Both the position numbers and the translations under genes were made by a program. Shown here in pieces: positions 15,076 to 64,000 of a stretch of 64,000 bases of DNA. This DNA comes from a virus (Duplodnaviria > Heunggongvirae > Uroviricota > Caudoviricetes). Below the pieces are notes generated by a model. The model was given only the letters and a program-made list of their open reading frames with translations, was not told the DNA's origin and did no database searches. Position 1 is the first letter of the stretch. Each line of letters starts with the position of its first letter. The DNA lies in the IMG/VR virus record IMGVR_UViG_3300045988_158233; one strand, given 5' to 3'.

Positions 15076-15095
15076 TACTGTTTACTTATACAGTG
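15076..15095. promoter_or_regulatory. LexA box (SOS operator) upstream of integrase
   Basis: TACTGT-ttacttat-ACAGTG fits CTGT-N8-ACAG consensus; about 27 bp upstream of int start. Confidence 0.6.
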
Positions 15096-50921: not shown

Positions 50922-51515
50922 ATGACGACGAAGACACCAGCCCGATCGCAAGCAAAAACTCGCAAAAAAGACAAAAACAAAAATTCTCCCCGCACCAATC
51001 CCACAACGCCTGTCGTAGAGTTCAACCCCCAGCTTAAAACCGTGAAAATCTTTAGTGATGGCTCTTGCCTCAAAAATCCGGGTGGCCCGGGCGGTTACGG
51101 TATCGTTCTCCAGTATCGTGGTGAGGAACGCGAGTTCTCAGATGGTTTTCATAGCACCACCAATAACCGCATGGAGATGATGGGGGCACTTATCGGGCTG
51201 GAGCGTTTGAAATATCCATGCAACGTTATTTTGTACTCTGATAGCCAGTATCTGAAAAACGGCATGACACAGTGGATGAAATGGTGGAAACGTAATGGAT
51301 GGATGACTTCTGATAAAAAACCGGTAAAGAATGTTGATCTGTGGAAACGTCTGGATGAGGCCGCAAGTCGACATAATGTTCGCTGGAAGTGGGTTAAAGG
51401 TCACGCCGGGCATCGTGAAAATGAAATATGTGATCGACTCGCGAAGATCGCAGCTTTTTCCGCAGCCGATACGCCTCACAAGAAAGACATTGGTTTTATT
51501 TACAACAAGTGGTAA
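50922..51515 (+). CDS. rnhA: ribonuclease HI
   Basis: [43 protein letters not shown] match RNase HI catalytic motifs; basic N-terminal extension. Confidence 0.8.
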
Positions 51516-60064: not shown

Positions 60065-60693
60065 GCACGGTAGCGAAAGATCTCACAGAAGATATTCTCA
60101 ATGAAATTATTGCTGGTGCAAATACCTCGCTTGAGCAACTTCTTGCGTTAGCACTGAGAGCCGAACGTCGAGACAGAAATCGTTTTTATGAACGATTACC
60201 AGGGAAACGACCAGATAGATCAGATGAAGAAGGTTGCGATATAGACTACATGGAGCCTTCAGAGATTTATCAACTTGGTAAAGATGACGGCTGGAACGCT
60301 TATCACGATGCTGTGATGAAGTTGGATGAAAAAGTTAAACCTCTTTCTCGACCGGTAGATCACGGTTTCCGCGATAACTGCGAATGCTCTAGTTGCCAGA
60401 CCACGGCCCGTATTTGTTCCGAATTGACAGATAAGTCCAGCCTAATCTACGAAGTTAATGTAGGCGGTAATACATGGGTCGAATGCACAAGAGCTGCATA
60501 CGTAAGAGCAAAAGACAAGGGTGAATTAACCAGAGTTGTTGCCCATCACCCAAATAATGAGCTTAAAGATCACCAGATTAGAGAACTGGTGAATGAGTTG
60601 CGGGATATTGCGGTTCAGTACCACGGAACGCAGCAATTGCGGGAGAAAATTGCCAGAGCAGTGAACAACTCAATTAGATCAGAAAGTATGTAG
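60061..60693 (+). CDS. hypothetical protein
   Basis: 210-aa ORF with CECSSC motif. Confidence 0.45.
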   Translation: MSTVAKDLTEDILNEIIAGANTSLEQLLALALRAERRDRNRFYERLPGKRPDRSDEEGCDIDYMEPSEIYQLGKDDGWNAYHDAVMKLDEKVKPLSRPVDHGFRDNCECSSCQTTARICSELTDKSSLIYEVNVGGNTWVECTRAAYVRAKDKGELTRVVAHHPNNELKDHQIRELVNELRDIAVQYHGTQQLREKIARAVNNSIRSESM

Positions 60694-60900
60694 TCAATAC
60701 AATAAAATGGCCCCATTTGGATGGGGCCGGTAACAACTAGCATTATGGGCGCTGGTTGACGTACTCAATGATCGCTTCGATGATTGCGAACATAGGCGGC
60801 ACGATTTTGAAAAGTAAGTTAAGCACTATAGGCCTCACTTAGTTTTATCGCACCTAGCTGCAAATACCTTTGAGCTTGCCTTTGCAGTTGCAATATCTGT

Positions 60901-61093
60901 AGTCGCCAGATACTTACGGCACGATTTCGAGTTAAGGTAAGGTTTTAGAGTCACCAAAAACCTGGACTTAAATCTTCTTTGAGAACAACGATGTTTGGTA
61001 AATGGTCATTATTACCTAGCATGACGGCTCAACGTTTCTTGATGAATCCAGTACATTCGGTTAATCTTAGCTCAGTCGCCAGATACTTATGGC
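60901..61093. repeat. 20-bp direct repeat pair in non-coding region
   Basis: agtcgccagatacttacggc (60901..60920) and agtcgccagatacttatggc (61074..61093), 173 bp apart. Confidence 0.6.
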
Positions 61094-61126
61094 TCAGGAA
61101 CAGAGGCGCAAACTCTGTTTCCTTTT

Positions 61127-61160
61127 AAAAAGCCCAGCCTAGTCAACTGGGCTTTTTTAA
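61127..61160. terminator. bidirectional terminator-like hairpin
   Basis: aaaaagcccag-cctagtcaa-ctgggctttttt. Confidence 0.55.
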
Positions 61161-61453
61161 TGTCCGTTTTTAACCAAATGTACCCACAATACCGCAACAT
61201 CAGTGTCTTGCGAATTAAGATAGGATTTATAGAGACTATGTGCAAGTGCATAACTTTGTGGATAACTCGTAAAGGAAAAAGTGGTTTCCGCGGACATTAG
61301 TTCAGACAAGGAGTCTGGGAAAGTCAATGGGAAGTAAAAATTTGTTAAAAATAACGTTTGTTGGAATTGTATATATTTATGCCTTTCAATAGTTAGCATC
61401 TTATTAACATCTTTTTTAAGAGATAGAGTTCAAAAATATATAGCTTCAACATA

Positions 61454-61473
61454 TACTGTATGCATATACAGCA
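61454..61473. promoter_or_regulatory. LexA box upstream of umuD-prime-like gene
   Basis: tACTGTatgcatatACAGca = CTGT-N8-ACAG; 16 bp upstream of ATG, RBS aagagg between. Confidence 0.6.
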
Positions 61474-61489
61474 TTAAGAGGCGAGTATT

Positions 61490-61879
61490 ATGGGCTTCCC
61501 TTCTCCTGCGGCGGATTATGCTGAGAGCCGTATTTCTCTTGATCAGCAGATAATTAGACATCCTTCAGCGACCTACTTCATGAGGGCGGCTGATAGTCAT
61601 CATCGTGAGGGAATATTGCAGGGTGCATTGCTGGTGGTCGATTCCTCACTGACTCCTGTTGATGGATCTCTTCTTGTATGTGCTCTGGATGGGGAATATC
61701 GCGTAAAAAGATACCGGAAGTATCCACGTCAGCATCTGGAGGATTTAAGAACTGGTAAGAAGGAAGCATTGCCAAAGGATGATGATGGATGCACGGGCAG
61801 CAATGCCGTGTTTGGTGTGATCACTCACATTATCAACGACGCAAGAAGTGGCGAGTTTGATGATTGTCCTGTGATGTAG
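61490..61879 (+). CDS. UmuD-prime-like (HumD-like) S24 peptidase-family protein lacking the N-terminal arm
   Basis: Begins MGFPSPAADY (matches UmuD sequence from the Cys24-Gly25 cleavage site onward), retains DS (Ser nucleophile region) and VKR (Lys) positions. Confidence 0.7.
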   Translation: MGFPSPAADYAESRISLDQQIIRHPSATYFMRAADSHHREGILQGALLVVDSSLTPVDGSLLVCALDGEYRVKRYRKYPRQHLEDLRTGKKEALPKDDDGCTGSNAVFGVITHIINDARSGEFDDCPVM

Positions 61880-61916: not shown

Positions 61917-63017
61917 TCACACTGCGCGGAATGCGATTTCGCCAGGTATTACTTCACCTTGCCAATACATTTGGGCAGCAACGCGATCTGCGAGGTCACG
62001 ATAAATAGCCGTAAATTCGCTATCTGGACGACTAATAACGGTTGGTGTTCCGTTATCCAGATCTTCACGAAGAGAGATATGAAGTGGCATTTGGCCTAAC
62101 AACTGCGTGTTGTATTTCTCGGCCAGTTTCTGTGCGCCACCGGTGCCAAAAATTGGCTCGTGATGACCGCAGTTACTGCAAATATGCACACTCATGTTTT
62201 CGACGATACCTAGTACCGGCACTTCGACTTTTTCGAACATCACAATGCCTTTCTTCGCATCGATCAGCGCGATGTCTTGCGGCGTAGTTACCACAACCGC
62301 ACCAGTTACAGGAATGTTCTGCGCCAGCGTCAATTGAATATCACCAGTGCCCGGCGGCATATCGAGAACGAGATAGTCCAGATCAGGCCACAGTGTTTCC
62401 TGCAACATCTGCATCAGCGCCTTGCTGGCCATCGGTCCACGCCACACCATTGCATTGTCGTCGGTGACCAGATAACCAATAGAGTTGGTTGCCAGGCCAT
62501 GAGACATGATAGGTGCCATGTGAGTACCGTCCGGTGAGGTTGGACGTTGGTTTTCCGCGCCCAGCATGGTTGGAATTGATGGACCATAGATATCGGCATC
62601 CAAAATACCAACTTTCGCACCTTCAGCAGCCAAAGCCAGTGCCAAGTTTACTGCTGTGGACGATTTGCCTACACCGCCCTTGCCTGAGCTTACGGCGATA
62701 ATATTCTTAACACCATTAATGCCTGGTTGGTTTTTGACGCGCTTAAGCGTGGCAATGTTGTACGACAGCTTCCAGTCAATAGCCTTTGCGCCAGTGATAC
62801 GGAGCAGATCACCACTACATTGCTCTTTCAGGTCTTCAAAAGGCTTATTCCACACGAAAGGCATGATTAGTTCGACATGCAGTGTGTCATCCATCAACGC
62901 AACATGGTGTAACGCTTTAAGCGTAGTCAGGTTGTGTTTCAGGGTTGGGTGCTGAAAATTAGCCAGCGTACCGGCTACCATTGCTCTCAGGGCATCCGGC
63001 GATTTGGACTCGCTCAT
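61917..63017 (-). CDS. apbC: iron-sulfur cluster carrier ATPase Mrp/ApbC
   Basis: Full-length match by eye to E. coli Mrp: deviant Walker A SGKGGVGKSST, CSNCGHH motif. Confidence 0.9.
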   Translation of the reverse strand: MSESKSPDALRAMVAGTLANFQHPTLKHNLTTLKALHHVALMDDTLHVELIMPFVWNKPFEDLKEQCSGDLLRITGAKAIDWKLSYNIATLKRVKNQPGINGVKNIIAVSSGKGGVGKSSTAVNLALALAAEGAKVGILDADIYGPSIPTMLGAENQRPTSPDGTHMAPIMSHGLATNSIGYLVTDDNAMVWRGPMASKALMQMLQETLWPDLDYLVLDMPPGTGDIQLTLAQNIPVTGAVVVTTPQDIALIDAKKGIVMFEKVEVPVLGIVENMSVHICSNCGHHEPIFGTGGAQKLAEKYNTQLLGQMPLHISLREDLDNGTPTVISRPDSEFTAIYRDLADRVAAQMYWQGEVIPGEIAFRAV

Positions 63018-63174
63018 CCCGTCTCCTTTATTTTAATTTGCGCAATTGTCGCCTTGTAGTGTACTCCAGCTACGACATTTAATCATTTATGAGAAATGCT
63101 GTTATCACATGGCAGACATAAGGCCATTTTGTTACTATCAAGCCCCTTTTCACTACAAAGAAGTAATGCCTACT

Positions 63175-64000
63175 ATGACCCAAGTCGCGAAGAAAATTCT
63201 GGTGACGTGCGCGCTGCCGTACGCTAACGGCTCAATCCACCTCGGCCATATGCTGGAGCACATCCAGGCTGATGTCTGGGTTCGTTACCAGCGAATGCGC
63301 GGCCACGAGGTTAATTTCATCTGTGCCGACGATGCCCACGGTACGCCGATCATGCTGAAAGCACAGCAGCTTGGTATCACACCGGAGCAGATGATTGGCG
63401 AAATGAGTCAGGAACACCAGACTGATTTCGCAGGCTTTAACATCAGCTATGACAACTATCACTCGACGCACAGCGAAGAGAACCGTCAGTTGTCTGAGCT
63501 TATCTATACTCGCCTGAAAGAGAACGGTTTTATTAAAAACCGCACTATCTCTCAGTTGTACGACCCGGAAAAAGGCATGTTCCTGCCGGATCGTTTTGTA
63601 AAAGGCACCTGCCCGAAATGTAAAGCGCCAGATCAATACGGCGATAACTGTGAAGTCTGCGGCGCAACATATAGCCCGACTGAATTGATCGAGCCGAAAT
63701 CGGTGGTTTCTGGCGCTACCCCGGTAATGCGTGATTCCGAACACTTCTTCTTTGATCTGCCTTCTTTCAGCGAAATGTTGCAGGCATGGACCCGCAGCGG
63801 CGCGTTGCAGGAGCAGGTGGCGAACAAAATGCAGGAATGGTTTGAATCCGGCCTGCAACAGTGGGATATCTCCCGAGATGCGCCTTACTTCGGTTTTGAA
63901 ATTCCGAACGCGCCGGGCAAATATTTCTACGTCTGGCTGGACGCGCCGATTGGCTACATGGGTTCCTTCAAGAATCTGTGCGACAAGCGCGGCGATACCA
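63175..64000 (+). CDS. metG: methionyl-tRNA synthetase (5' part; continues beyond window)
   Basis: N-terminus [35 protein letters not shown] with HLGH motif and zinc knuckle CPKC...CEVCG. Confidence 0.9.

What the first reader, a model, noticed from the sequence alone, without database searches (positions are those of the whole stretch)
60730..61160. Non-coding 430-bp region with 20-bp direct repeats and a terminal terminator
Between the last operon and the UmuD-prime-like gene there is no ORF but two copies of AGTCGCCAGATACTTA(C/T)GGC 173 bp apart, several hairpins, and a strong terminator at 61127..61160. It could be an sRNA gene, a recombination (att-like) region at the element boundary, or a packaging-related site.
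Basis: seen in the sequence. Interest (0 to 1): 0.4.

Follow-up and report, generated by a model that had tools for sequence, protein, structure and literature searches.

The report
Unannotated small-RNA/toxin gene pair (dinQ/agrB-like)
The "non-coding" gap is most likely an unannotated plasmid-maintenance (addiction) cassette: a 27-amino-acid membrane peptide gene on the minus strand and a divergent ~85-nt small RNA that pairs with its leader, so the two 20-bp repeats are the RNA's seed and its target, distantly related to E. coli dinQ/agrB.

Summary
There are two copies of a 20-mer, 173 bp apart, with no further copy in the 64 kb, and a strong terminator at 61129-61158. "No ORF" is wrong.

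The window is an SSU5/pECOH89-like E. coli phage-plasmid. Positions 60705-61160 form a self-contained cassette that recurs, unannotated, in about 100 plasmids and phage-plasmids of several enterobacterial genera.

- **Minus strand:** a Shine-Dalgarno sequence (SD), a 27-codon hydrophobic ORF under purifying selection (60826..60743) and its own terminator.
- **Plus strand:** a conserved promoter, an ~85-nt structured sRNA (61074-~61158) and a terminator.

Repeat copy 2 is the sRNA 5' end. Repeat copy 1 lies in the mRNA leader. The two copies co-vary through five sequence "alleles". Every difference between them gives a G·U wobble in the sRNA:mRNA duplex.

The sRNA's best Rfam match is AgrB (27 bits, below threshold). 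A covariance model of this sRNA finds K-12 agrA/agrB and the plasmid dqlB-linked sRNAs as top hits. The peptide is not recognised by DinQ, DqlB or TisB models, and there is no LexA box.

Verdict: a divergent, unannotated type I toxin-antitoxin module of the dinQ/agrB kind. It is not an att or pac site. Toxicity and transcript ends are inferred, not shown.

The parts
60709..60728 (-). Intrinsic terminator of the small-protein (toxin) mRNA: GGCCCCAUCCAAAUGGGGCC followed by AUUUUAUUGU on the minus strand
   Evidence: Terminator scan. The T-run is on the minus strand only. Each relative has its own minus-strand terminator at the same place after the ORF.
60743..60826 (-). 27-codon ORF with a GTG start (ATG in relatives), plus its stop codon: MLNLLFKIVPPMFAIIEAIIEYVNQRP. 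This is the putative membrane toxin.
   Evidence: Purifying selection: pS 0.35-0.58 against pN 0.02-0.10, and variable sites by codon position are 8/3/15. tblastn finds it in 93 plasmids and 2 phages, almost never annotated.
60833..60836 (-). Shine-Dalgarno sequence GAGG, 6 nt upstream of the start codon
   Evidence: Read from the sequence. An SD is present before the ORF in the relatives scanned.
60797..60810 (-). 'ORF arm' (A)AAUCGUGCC inside codons 6-10. It is one copy of the second direct repeat and can pair with element X to enclose the SD and start codon.
   Evidence: Repeat D4. X:ORF-arm helix is 84% paired across 13 sequences. It is present in the minimum-energy fold of the window mRNA.
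60847..60854 (-). Element X, GGUGCGAU. It is complementary to both copies of AUCGUGCC.
   Evidence: Variation in X is confined to Y/R positions, which keep pairing with G and U.
60858..60887 (-). Invariant leader hairpin CUGCAAA...UUUGCAG (hairpin D)
   Evidence: All 7 stem pairs are invariant in 13 sequences. This hairpin was used as the search pattern that recovered 31 loci.
60894..60912 (-). Leader hairpin C, UAUCUG-GCGACUA-CAGAUA. The 3' half of the target forms the stem. The loop is complementary to the first 7 nt of the sRNA.
   Evidence: The helix is 92% paired with 2 compensatory pairs. The stem changes together with the repeats (Klebsiella GUUAAC/GUUAAC, L011 CACUG/CAGUG).
60901..60920 (-). 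Repeat copy 1. On the mRNA this is the target GCCGUAAGUAUCUGGCGACU of the sRNA seed, about 65 nt upstream of the SD.
   Evidence: RNAduplex for the cognate seed:leader pair is -38.5 kcal/mol.
60917..60930 (-). Leader copy of AAAUCGUGCC. It abuts and overlaps the target and is the alternative partner of element X.
   Evidence: Repeat D4. X:leader-copy helix is 92% paired across 13 sequences.
60961..61002 (-). Probable promoter and 5'-end region of the toxin mRNA: weak TTACCA-18-GAAGAT, then UUUAAGUCCAGG. The position is inferred and uncertain.
   Evidence: The best positionally conserved sigma-70-like match across relatives. By eye, the motif resembles the +44 5' end of dinQ, UUUCAAAGUCCUGG. 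No statistical support.
61039..61067 (+). sRNA promoter: -35 TTGATG (61039-61044), 17-nt spacer, -10 TAATCT (61062-61067)
   Evidence: TTG..G and T.AA..T are invariant across 7 divergent sequences, while the neighbouring spacer is full of substitutions and indels. The geometry is the same as the K-12 agrB promoter.
61074..61158 (+). AgrB-like antitoxin sRNA of about 85 nt: seed = repeat copy 2 (61074-61093), stem-loop (61097-61122), terminator (61129-61158)
   Evidence: Fold z = -4.6. Structure is 94% paired against 32-59% in slid controls, with 5 compensatory pairs. The best Rfam family is AgrB at 27 bits, E 0.0047. Model R1 finds agrA, agrB and the dqlB-linked sRNAs.

Best explanation
Window 60705-61160 is a type I toxin-antitoxin cassette of the dinQ/agrB kind, carried by an SSU5/pECOH89-like phage-plasmid.

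Components:
- The minus strand gives an mRNA of about 260-300 nt. It has a leader of about 140 nt, an SD, a 27-aa hydrophobic peptide ORF (60826..60743) and a terminator (60728..60709).
- The plus strand gives a divergent sRNA of about 85 nt. It runs from a conserved promoter (61039-61067), starts at about 61074 and ends at the terminator at about 61158.
- The first 20 nt of the sRNA are repeat copy 2. They are complementary to the leader at repeat copy 1.

Proposed mechanism:
1. The single-stranded sRNA 5' end contacts the GGCGACU loop of leader hairpin C.
2. It zips into a duplex of 20 bp or more, about 65 nt upstream of the SD.
3. As shown experimentally for agrB on dinQ, the duplex is proposed to do two things.
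   - It occupies the leader copy of AUCGUGCC. Element X (GGUGCGAU) then pairs with the identical sequence inside the ORF and locks the SD and start codon in a closed helix.
   - It creates an RNase III substrate.
4. On loss of the phage-plasmid, the short-lived sRNA would decay first, the peptide would be made, and plasmid-free cells would be killed or arrested (addiction).

Shown here by computation: the cassette, the ORF's coding signature, the conserved sRNA promoter, structure and terminator, seed/target co-variation following RNA rules, and the resemblance of the sRNA to AgrB.

Inferred: transcript ends, toxicity, sRNA instability, RNase III involvement, the structural switch, and the addiction role.
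For: 1. Cassette.
   - The same unit occurs in about 100 plasmids or phage-plasmids and 2 phages of Escherichia, Shigella, Citrobacter, Klebsiella, Enterobacter and Kosakonia.
   - It sits in different neighbourhoods, for example next to repA or RepB and in IncFIB and MPF_F conjugative plasmids.
   - Similarity to the relatives drops off close to the two terminators.
2. ORF.
   - It has an SD, 27 codons and a hydrophobic product. pN/pS is about 0.1, and 15 third-position against 3 second-position variable sites were counted.
   - Distant relatives carry two tandem paralogous ORFs under one leader.
3. sRNA.
   - The -35 and -10 elements are invariant within an otherwise variable spacer.
   - Fold z = -4.6.
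   - 94% of cells are paired against 32-59% when the structure is slid. 5 pairs show compensatory change, and 0 of 500 shuffles reach the observed covariation score.
4. Seed and target.
   - Nine distinct repeat pairs fall into 5 seed variants. Both copies always change together.
   - 10 of 24 duplex positions show changes on both sides, and positions 2-20 are 100% paired.
   - The only one-sided changes are C/A in copy 1 against T/G in copy 2. These are G·U wobbles for plus-strand sRNA pairing with minus-strand mRNA.
   - The opposite strand assignment gives C·A mismatches.
   - Cognate duplexes are -38 to -49 kcal/mol.
5. Relation to AgrB.
   - Of 4227 Rfam families, AgrB is the best match to 61079-61160: full model length, 27 bits, E 0.0047.
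   - Model R1, built from this sRNA family, finds the annotated agrB (26.1 bits) and agrA (24.6 bits) of K-12 as the top hits in that locus.
   - It also finds the sRNA beside dqlB on IncX3, IncI, IncX4 and IncFIB/HI1B plasmids at 21.7-30.1 bits. In three of those four loci (L041, L042, L044) this is the top hit. In L043 the 21.7-bit hit is the best in that locus but ranks below the K-12 hits.
   - Background in the 64-kb window is at most 14.9 bits.
6. Layout. K-12 dinQ has 27 codons, a GTG start, a divergent 82-nt sRNA, and a direct repeat between the leader and the sRNA 5' end. The layout and sizes match.
7. Mechanism precedent.
   - agrB acts far from the SD by re-routing mutually exclusive leader helices, and RNase III cleaves the duplex (PMC5066626).
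   - DqlB-agrB on pOXA-48 is an experimentally shown addiction module (PMC12365149).
   - Here, element X can pair with either copy of AUCGUGCC in all 13 sequences: 92% and 84% of cells paired.
Against: - No expression data. Both transcript 5' ends are predictions, and the toxin promoter match is weak and poorly conserved.
- The peptide is not recognised by any model, even at E <= 10: NCBIfam DinQ, DqlB and TisB, Pfam and PHROGs. The same NCBIfam library does recognise DinQ and TisB controls.
- A profile comparison with DinQ/Dql aligns only 10 N-terminal residues, P = 0.023. The LELIR signature is absent.
- The AgrB match is below Rfam's gathering score (27 against 40 bits), and part of any such score comes from a generic terminator.
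- The leader shows no significant nucleotide similarity to dinQ/dql leaders.
- Thermodynamic modelling of the switch is mixed. Blocking the target flips X from the leader copy to the ORF arm in L011 and L023. In the window's own sequence, and in most others, the closed form is already favoured without the sRNA.
- Toxicity is assumed only from size, hydrophobicity and family resemblance.
Confidence: 0.8

Rival explanations
1. This is an sRNA-regulated small membrane protein that is not a toxin. The pair would be an ordinary riboregulated accessory gene with some physiological role for the phage-plasmid, for example membrane or transport modulation or superinfection exclusion. It would not be an addiction module.
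For: Everything shown here concerns the ORF, the sRNA and their pairing, not toxicity. The peptide matches no known toxin model.
Against: - The sRNA resembles the AgrB antitoxin in both search directions.
- The layout and sizes equal those of dinQ/agrB.
- The cassette moves among unrelated plasmids and sits next to replication genes, as maintenance modules do.
- The peptide is short and hydrophobic with a polar or charged C-terminal end, the usual form of type I toxins (PMC2887945).
Confidence: 0.12
2. The two 20-mers are DNA sites for a protein (iterons, an operator, or the core sites of a recombinase or terminase). They would co-vary because both must fit the same protein.
For: Direct repeats that change together are also expected for paired protein-binding sites. 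The cassette often lies near rep genes.
Against: - There are only two copies and no third in 64 kb.
- No protein gene travels with the cassette, because the flanks differ in every context.
- All differences between the copies at positions 2-20 are transitions in the one direction that keeps RNA pairing, which DNA-site recognition does not predict.
- Copy 2 starts exactly where a conserved promoter would start transcription, and a structured RNA and terminator follow it.
- The cassette is internal to plasmids, not at an integration boundary.
Confidence: 0.03
3. The antitoxin is a long cis-antisense RNA. It would start at the plus-strand promoter-like site inside the ORF (TTGACG-17-GATGAT, 60756-60784) and run about 375 nt to the 61158 terminator. 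It would overlap the whole leader, as in hok/sok-type loci, and the short sRNA would be irrelevant.
For: The promoter scan finds this site at 9/12 matches. Similar hexamers occur in close relatives.
Against: - The site lies in coding sequence, so its conservation is explained by the protein.
- The scan finds no more promoter-like sites than in shuffled sequence: 2 found against 2.9 expected.
- A fully complementary antisense RNA would not need a second, co-varying copy of the target sequence, nor the conserved promoter at 61039-61067.
Confidence: 0.05

Closest known systems
dinQ/agrA-agrB of E. coli K-12, with the plasmid and chromosomal dinQ-like (dqlA/dqlB)-agrB loci (Kristiansen et al. 2016, PMC5066626; pOXA-48 DqlB-agrB, PMC12365149)
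   Same: - Divergent layout, with the toxin on one strand and an sRNA of about 82-85 nt on the other.
- The first 20-35 nt of the sRNA are a direct repeat of a leader segment far upstream of the SD.
- A 27-codon ORF with a GTG start, as in dinQ.
- The sRNA has the same build: a single-stranded seed, a stem-loop with an AGAG...AACUC core, an A-rich spacer and a terminator. It is detected in both directions by covariance models.
- The leader can form mutually exclusive helices around the SD.
- It is plasmid-borne, like dqlB, which acts as an addiction module.
   Different: - The peptide is not recognised by the NCBIfam DinQ or DqlB models and lacks the ALI..LELIR signature.
- The leader has no significant nucleotide similarity to dinQ/dql leaders.
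- The seed sequence is unrelated and shorter, 20-23 nt against about 34 nt.
- The SD-closing partner lies inside the ORF rather than next to the SD.
- There is no LexA box.
- There is one sRNA copy rather than two.
- Distant relatives carry two tandem toxin ORFs.
- The Rfam AgrB score is below the gathering threshold.
tisB/istR-1 (E. coli)
   Same: A divergent, trans-acting sRNA whose 5' tail pairs about 20 nt in the leader, well upstream of the SD (standby-site region), followed by RNase III cleavage (PMC8167048). The toxin is a 29-aa amphipathic helix. A weak profile alignment covers 20 columns, P = 0.003, probability 10%.
   Different: The TisB models do not match. No IstR match appears in Rfam. 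There is no LexA box and no tisA-like upstream ORF.
zorO/orzO (E. coli O157:H7) and shoB/ohsC
   Same: A short hydrophobic toxin of 26-29 aa with a long structured leader that inhibits its own translation. The sRNA pairs through its 5' end with about 18-19 nt in the leader (PMC8309996, PMC8167048). The seed is specific enough that close paralogues do not cross-react, as here with five seed variants.
   Different: No sequence similarity of the peptide or the sRNA. Those loci are chromosomal. Sensitive blastn of the cassette against 5,426 E. coli genomes hits only the 115 that carry the phage-plasmid-type sequence.
hok/sok family (plasmid R1 and relatives)
   Same: A plasmid-borne type I addiction module with a highly structured mRNA and a short antisense RNA.
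   Different: In hok/sok the antisense RNA is cis-encoded and overlaps the mok/hok translation start. The toxin is about 50 aa, and there is an overlapping mok reading frame. None of this is present here.

Membership tests
dinQ/agrB - dql (DinQ-like) type I TA family | The antitoxin sRNA matches the AgrB covariance model (Rfam RF02891, gathering score 40 bits). | tested here: inconclusive
   The score is 27.0 bits, E 0.0047, over the full model length. This is the best of 4227 families for 61050-61175 but lies below the gathering score. It was not seen in the 3-kb scan at E <= 1. Positive control: K-12 agrA and agrB score 106-108 bits. Reciprocal test: model R1 from this sRNA finds agrA, agrB and the dqlB-linked sRNAs at 21.7-30.1 bits, against a background of at most 14.9 bits.
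dinQ/agrB - dql (DinQ-like) type I TA family | The toxin peptide has the DinQ/Dql signature (NCBIfam NF041472 toxin_DinQ or NF041473 DqlB; conserved ALI..LELIR). | tested here: not met
   No hit for 7 peptides of this family even at E <= 10. The DinQ control hits NF041472 at 1.4e-14. hhalign of A2 against A6 aligns only 10 N-terminal residues, P = 0.023. LELIR is absent.
dinQ/agrB - dql (DinQ-like) type I TA family | The 5' UTR has nucleotide similarity to the dinQ leader. This is the criterion used to define dql genes (PMC5066626). | tested here: not met
   nhmmer with the leader alignment A4 against the dinQ and dqlB loci gives no relevant hit. The dql profile hits only the 3' half of the sRNA in these modules. 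Only a short motif, UUUAAGUCCAGG against UUUCAAAGUCCUGG, is similar by eye.
dinQ/agrB - dql (DinQ-like) type I TA family | Divergent toxin and sRNA genes, with the sRNA 5' end a direct repeat of a leader segment distant from the SD. | tested here: met
   for the window. for K-12 dinQ/agrAB, which has the same geometry and sizes.
dinQ/agrB - dql (DinQ-like) type I TA family | Mutually exclusive leader helices open or close the SD, and the sRNA shifts the balance. | tested here: inconclusive
   Element X can pair with either copy of AUCGUGCC in all 13 sequences: 92% and 84% of cells paired, with few compensatory changes. Partition-function modelling shows the predicted flip in L011 and L023 but not in the window's own sequence.
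dinQ proper / tisB (SOS-induced type I toxins) | A LexA box in the toxin promoter. | tested here: not met
   The only LexA-like boxes in the window are at 61454-61473 (humD promoter), 15076-15095 and a weak one at 51096. None lies within 60705-61160.
[quoted passage not shown] | The small protein is toxic on overexpression, and the sRNA relieves toxicity by base pairing. | not testable with these tools
   This needs expression and rescue experiments. Only the pairing potential and its co-variation are shown.
tisB/istR-1 | TisB peptide models (NF011340, TIGR04459) and the IstR RNA family. | tested here: not met
   No hit for the peptides, while the TisB control hits at 1.5e-19. No IstR match in Rfam. 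hhalign probability is 10%.
hok/sok | A Hok_Gef peptide of about 50 aa, an overlapping mok frame, and a cis-overlapping Sok RNA. | tested here: not met
   No Pfam hit. There is no ORF of that size or arrangement. No Sok match in Rfam.
   There are exactly two copies in 64 kb. The cassette is internal to unrelated plasmids with different flanking genes.

The most novel reading that the evidence does not exclude
This cassette may be a distinct, so far undescribed toxin family that has kept an AgrB-type antitoxin scaffold. Three possibilities follow.
- Its five co-varying seed/target variants could be orthogonal "specificity alleles". Co-resident phage-plasmids and plasmids would then each stay addictive without cross-protection, a form of RNA-level incompatibility or competition.
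- In the branch with two tandem toxin ORFs, one sRNA would control a two-toxin operon.
- On a phage-plasmid the module might also act in superinfection exclusion or abortive infection, rather than only in segregational stability.
Probability: 0.25. Interest if true: 0.5.

Novelty: new variant of a known kind. Interest (0 to 1): 0.38.

Why it matters
- **Annotation gap.** The finding assigns a likely function to a conserved, unannotated 450-bp gap. The gap is present in about 100 sequenced SSU5/pECOH89-like phage-plasmids, several of which carry ESBL genes such as CTX-M-15, and in other enterobacterial plasmids. Type I toxin genes are routinely missed by annotation pipelines, and this one is absent from NCBIfam, Pfam and PHROGs.
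- **Plasmid persistence.** If it is an addiction module, it helps explain the stable carriage of these phage-plasmids. It would be a target for plasmid-curing strategies, as was done with agrB on pOXA-48.
- **RNA biology.** It extends the dinQ/agrB kind to a peptide with a different sequence. It also offers a natural series of five seed/target variants for studying antisense specificity and leader switches.
- **Scale.** It is not a new principle.

Tried and rejected
- **Rfam at 3-kb scale.** The scan at E <= 1 gave only a terminator-level hit. The AgrB relation appeared only when the search was narrowed to 126 nt.
- **Exact-sequence look-up.** It found only unnamed or hypothetical entries.
- **Exhaustive phmmer with the 31-aa frame.** Only 3 proteins were found.
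- **Full-text searches.** Searches for the peptide strings and the seed sequence found nothing relevant.
- **tblastn with DinQ against plasmids.** No match, probably because of low-complexity masking.
- **pOXA-48 record JN626286.** It is not in the collections, so dqlB loci were reached by blastn with the dinQ leader instead.
- **Supplement of PMC11264685.** It holds no mention of these plasmids.
- **Toxin promoter.** No convincing sigma-70 promoter was found. Only a weak, positionally conserved candidate emerged, so the mRNA 5' end is left open.
- **Longer minus-strand ORFs through the leader.** The 40-aa ORF at 60835..60957 and the 117-aa CDS annotated in Enterobacter were considered. Both were rejected because stops and frame changes occur among relatives, and conservation follows hairpins rather than codons.
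- **Plus-strand 49-aa ORF at 60979..61128.** Rejected, because it spans the indel-rich spacer and the sRNA.
- **LexA control.** Rejected.
- **att, pac and iteron readings.** Rejected.
- **Structural switch.** Modelling gives mixed support, so the switch is kept only as a hypothesis.
Full report
**Context**

The window is part of a phage-plasmid of about 110 kb from E. coli. Positions 60650-61500 are 99.8-100% identical to plasmids such as NZ_CP027358.1 and pECOH89 (NC_023916.1). They are 90-94% identical to the phages Cyrano and CMS-2020a.

The finding lies between a plus-strand ORF that ends at 60693 and a humD (UmuD'-like) gene at 61490-61879. That gene is followed by host-like apbC and metG. 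In the records inspected, the stretch 60700-61240 is almost always unannotated; two carry a 'hypothetical protein'.

**Checking the observation**

The two 20-mers are at 60901-60920 and 61074-61093. They match at 19 of 20 positions and lie 173 nt apart. They are the only matches in the 64 kb, even with three mismatches allowed. The expected number is 0.01.

The terminator is real: stem 61132-61152, T-run 61153-61158. Two things were missed.
- A second direct repeat, CGGCACGATTT, occurs at 60797 and 60917.
- A hairpin at 60709-60728 has its T-run on the minus strand, so it is a terminator for a minus-strand transcript.

**A conserved, mobile cassette**

Sensitive blastn found the region in 98 plasmids. 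Beyond the E. coli phage-plasmids, 67-80% identical copies occur in several other hosts:
- a Kosakonia conjugative plasmid, next to repA;
- Citrobacter plasmids, one next to a RepB gene;
- a Klebsiella IncFIB plasmid;
- an Enterobacter plasmid.

A pattern taken from an invariant hairpin recovered 31 further loci from genome and viral collections. In alignments, similarity to the relatives drops off close to the two terminators, and the flanks are unrelated. The unit is therefore 60705-61160.

**A small protein gene on the minus strand**

All copies carry a 25-28-codon ORF on the minus strand, preceded by an SD sequence in the copies scanned.
- In the window it is GTG 60826..60743, encoding MLNLLFKIVPPMFAIIEAIIEYVNQRP. 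The SD is GAGG at 60836-60833.
- Close relatives use ATG as the start codon.
- Among seven distinct alleles, pS is 0.35-0.58 and pN is 0.02-0.10 in most pairwise comparisons. Variable sites by codon position number 8, 3 and 15. The ORF is therefore translated and under purifying selection.
- The distant branch has two tandem paralogous ORFs under one leader, for example MQMLLLFLKLAHPVAVIIMTLLGYWKDR and MVSLLLKILPPLVAIITTIIDYINKR.
- The peptide has no Pfam, NCBIfam or PHROG match. It is almost never annotated.

**A small RNA gene on the plus strand**

Upstream of repeat copy 2 there is a promoter, TTGATG-17-TAATCT (61039-61067). Its key bases are invariant across seven divergent sequences, while the adjacent spacer is full of substitutions and indels. 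Transcription would start at about A61074, the first base of the repeat.

The 85-87-nt RNA has three parts: a largely single-stranded 5' seed, a stem-loop (61097-61122) and the terminator. It folds at -32.9 kcal/mol, z = -4.6.

Across 12 distinct sequences, 94% of cells are paired, against 32-59% when the structure is slid. Five pairs show compensatory change, and no shuffle reaches the observed covariation score.

**The repeats are seed and target**

Nine distinct copy-1/copy-2 pairs fall into five sequence variants:
- GTCGCCAGATACTTAYGGC
- ..ACATTYGGCAC
- GTCGCCGGTTAACAACRGCAC
- GCTGCC...
- GTCGCCAGTGTTTTACGGCAC

Both copies always carry the same variant. I treated the plus-strand RNA of copy 2 as pairing with the minus-strand RNA at copy 1.
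- Positions 2-20 are paired in every case.
- 10 of 24 positions show changes on both sides.
- The only one-sided changes are C or A in copy 1 against T or G in copy 2, which gives G·U wobbles.

With the opposite strand assignment, these same differences become C·A mismatches. This asymmetry is what RNA pairing predicts and what a DNA-binding-site explanation does not. Cognate duplex energies are -38 to -49 kcal/mol. The most divergent variants are 10-25 kcal/mol worse on each other's leaders.

**Leader anatomy**

The target lies about 65 nt upstream of the SD.
- **Hairpin C.** The 3' half of the target forms a hairpin with downstream sequence: UAUCUG-GCGACUA-CAGAUA. Its stem changes together with the repeats. 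Its loop is complementary to the first seven bases of the sRNA.
- **Hairpin D.** An invariant hairpin follows at 60858-60887.
- **Element X.** Next comes GGUGCGAU (60847-60854). It is complementary to both copies of AUCGUGCC. One copy lies just 5' of the target and overlaps it (60917-60930). The other lies inside the ORF (60797-60810).

Both alternative helices can form in all 13 sequences, with 92% and 84% of cells paired. Pairing of X with the ORF copy encloses the SD and the start codon.

Modelling with the target blocked flips X from the leader copy to the ORF copy in two variants, L011 and L023. In the window's own sequence the closed form already dominates. The switch remains a hypothesis.

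**Relation to known systems**

The first Rfam scan, over 3 kb, found nothing relevant. Literature on type I systems pointed to dinQ/agrB and its dinQ-like (dql) relatives on plasmids.

The K-12 locus has the same layout and sizes:
- dinQ has 27 codons and a GTG start;
- the divergent sRNAs AgrA and AgrB are 82 nt long;
- the sRNA 5' ends repeat a leader segment.

Evidence that the sRNAs are related:
- A narrow Rfam scan of 61050-61175 puts AgrB (RF02891) first of 4227 families. The match covers the full model length at 27.0 bits, E 0.0047. This is below the 40-bit gathering score.
- Conversely, covariance model R1, built from this sRNA family, finds the annotated agrB (26.1 bits) and agrA (24.6 bits) as the top hits in the K-12 locus.
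- R1 also finds the sRNA next to dqlB on IncX3, IncI, IncX4 and IncFIB/HI1B plasmids at 21.7-30.1 bits. These are the best hits in each of those loci. The L043 hit, at 21.7 bits, ranks below the K-12 hits overall.
- Nothing unrelated in the 64-kb window exceeds 14.9 bits.

The sRNA is therefore a distant relative of AgrB. The rest of the cassette is not demonstrably related:
- The DinQ and DqlB protein models recognise DinQ but not these peptides.
- A profile comparison aligns only the N-terminal 10 residues.
- The leader has no significant similarity to dinQ/dql leaders.
- There is no LexA box in the cassette.

**Mechanism by analogy**

For dinQ, agrB binds far from the SD. It re-routes mutually exclusive leader helices so that the SD hairpin closes, and RNase III cleaves the duplex (PMC5066626). 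DqlB-agrB on pOXA-48 kills cells that lose the plasmid unless agrB is supplied (PMC12365149).

The anatomy found here fits the same logic. These are the steps I infer but did not show.

**Verdict**

The finding is a real feature, but it is not a non-coding region. It is an unannotated type I toxin-antitoxin-like gene pair of the dinQ/agrB kind, with a peptide that no current family model recognises.

The att and packaging ideas are not supported. Confidence in the sRNA/small-protein pair is high. Confidence that it is toxic and acts as an addiction module is moderate. Interest is modest: a useful annotation and a new variant, not a new principle.

Noticed in passing
window 61241-61368: Just right of the cassette, about 120-130 bp are 88-89% identical to the chromosomal ypaB/nrdA-upstream region present in 5,423 of 5,426 E. 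coli genomes. The stretch includes a consensus DnaA box, TGTGGATAA, at about 61258. P1 carries the same stretch in upfN/upfO, annotated as 'E. coli DNA region containing two predicted DnaA boxes'. It looks like a host regulatory fragment captured by P1-like and SSU5-like phage-plasmids upstream of humD.
   Followed up: partly
window 61454-61473 and 15076-15095: A near-consensus LexA box, TACTGTATGCATATACAGCA, lies 17 nt upstream of the humD start codon, so humD is probably SOS-regulated. A second LexA-like box, TACTGTTTACTTATACAGTG, is at 15076-15095. Its neighbouring gene was not examined.
   Followed up: partly
window 61917-64000: The phage-plasmid carries full-length host-like apbC (mrp) and metG (methionyl-tRNA synthetase) genes directly after humD. 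The same is true in the related plasmid NZ_CP027358.1 and in phage Cyrano. This is an unusual housekeeping cargo for a phage-plasmid.
   Followed up: no
L010 (JAEWTL010000044.1, 'MAG: Bacillota bacterium'): A contig assigned to a Bacillota metagenome-assembled genome carries a near-identical copy of this E. coli phage-plasmid cassette and its flanks. This is most likely mis-binning or contamination.
   Followed up: no
L007 1375-1728 (NZ_CP074151.1, KGP24_RS24060): In the Enterobacter plasmid a 117-aa 'hypothetical protein' is annotated across the toxin leader and ORFs. The reading frame is not conserved among relatives, so it is probably a spurious call that hides the two real small ORFs.
   Followed up: partly
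L004-L008, about 40-60 nt downstream of the sRNA terminator: The distant copies of the cassette (Kosakonia, Enterobacter, Citrobacter, Klebsiella) share an extra conserved block, AAATACTACATATAGGGG, beyond the sRNA terminator. The block is absent from the window. Its function is unknown.
   Followed up: no
L042 157-240 and 403-486 (NZ_CP027374.1, IncI plasmid): The IncI dqlB locus has two tandem AgrB-like sRNA copies, as K-12 has agrA and agrB. The window's cassette has only one.
   Followed up: no
window 60756-60784: A plus-strand sigma-70-like site, TTGACG-17-GATGAT, lies inside the small ORF in antisense orientation. It could give a cis-antisense transcript, but its conservation is confounded by the coding sequence.
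   Followed up: partly
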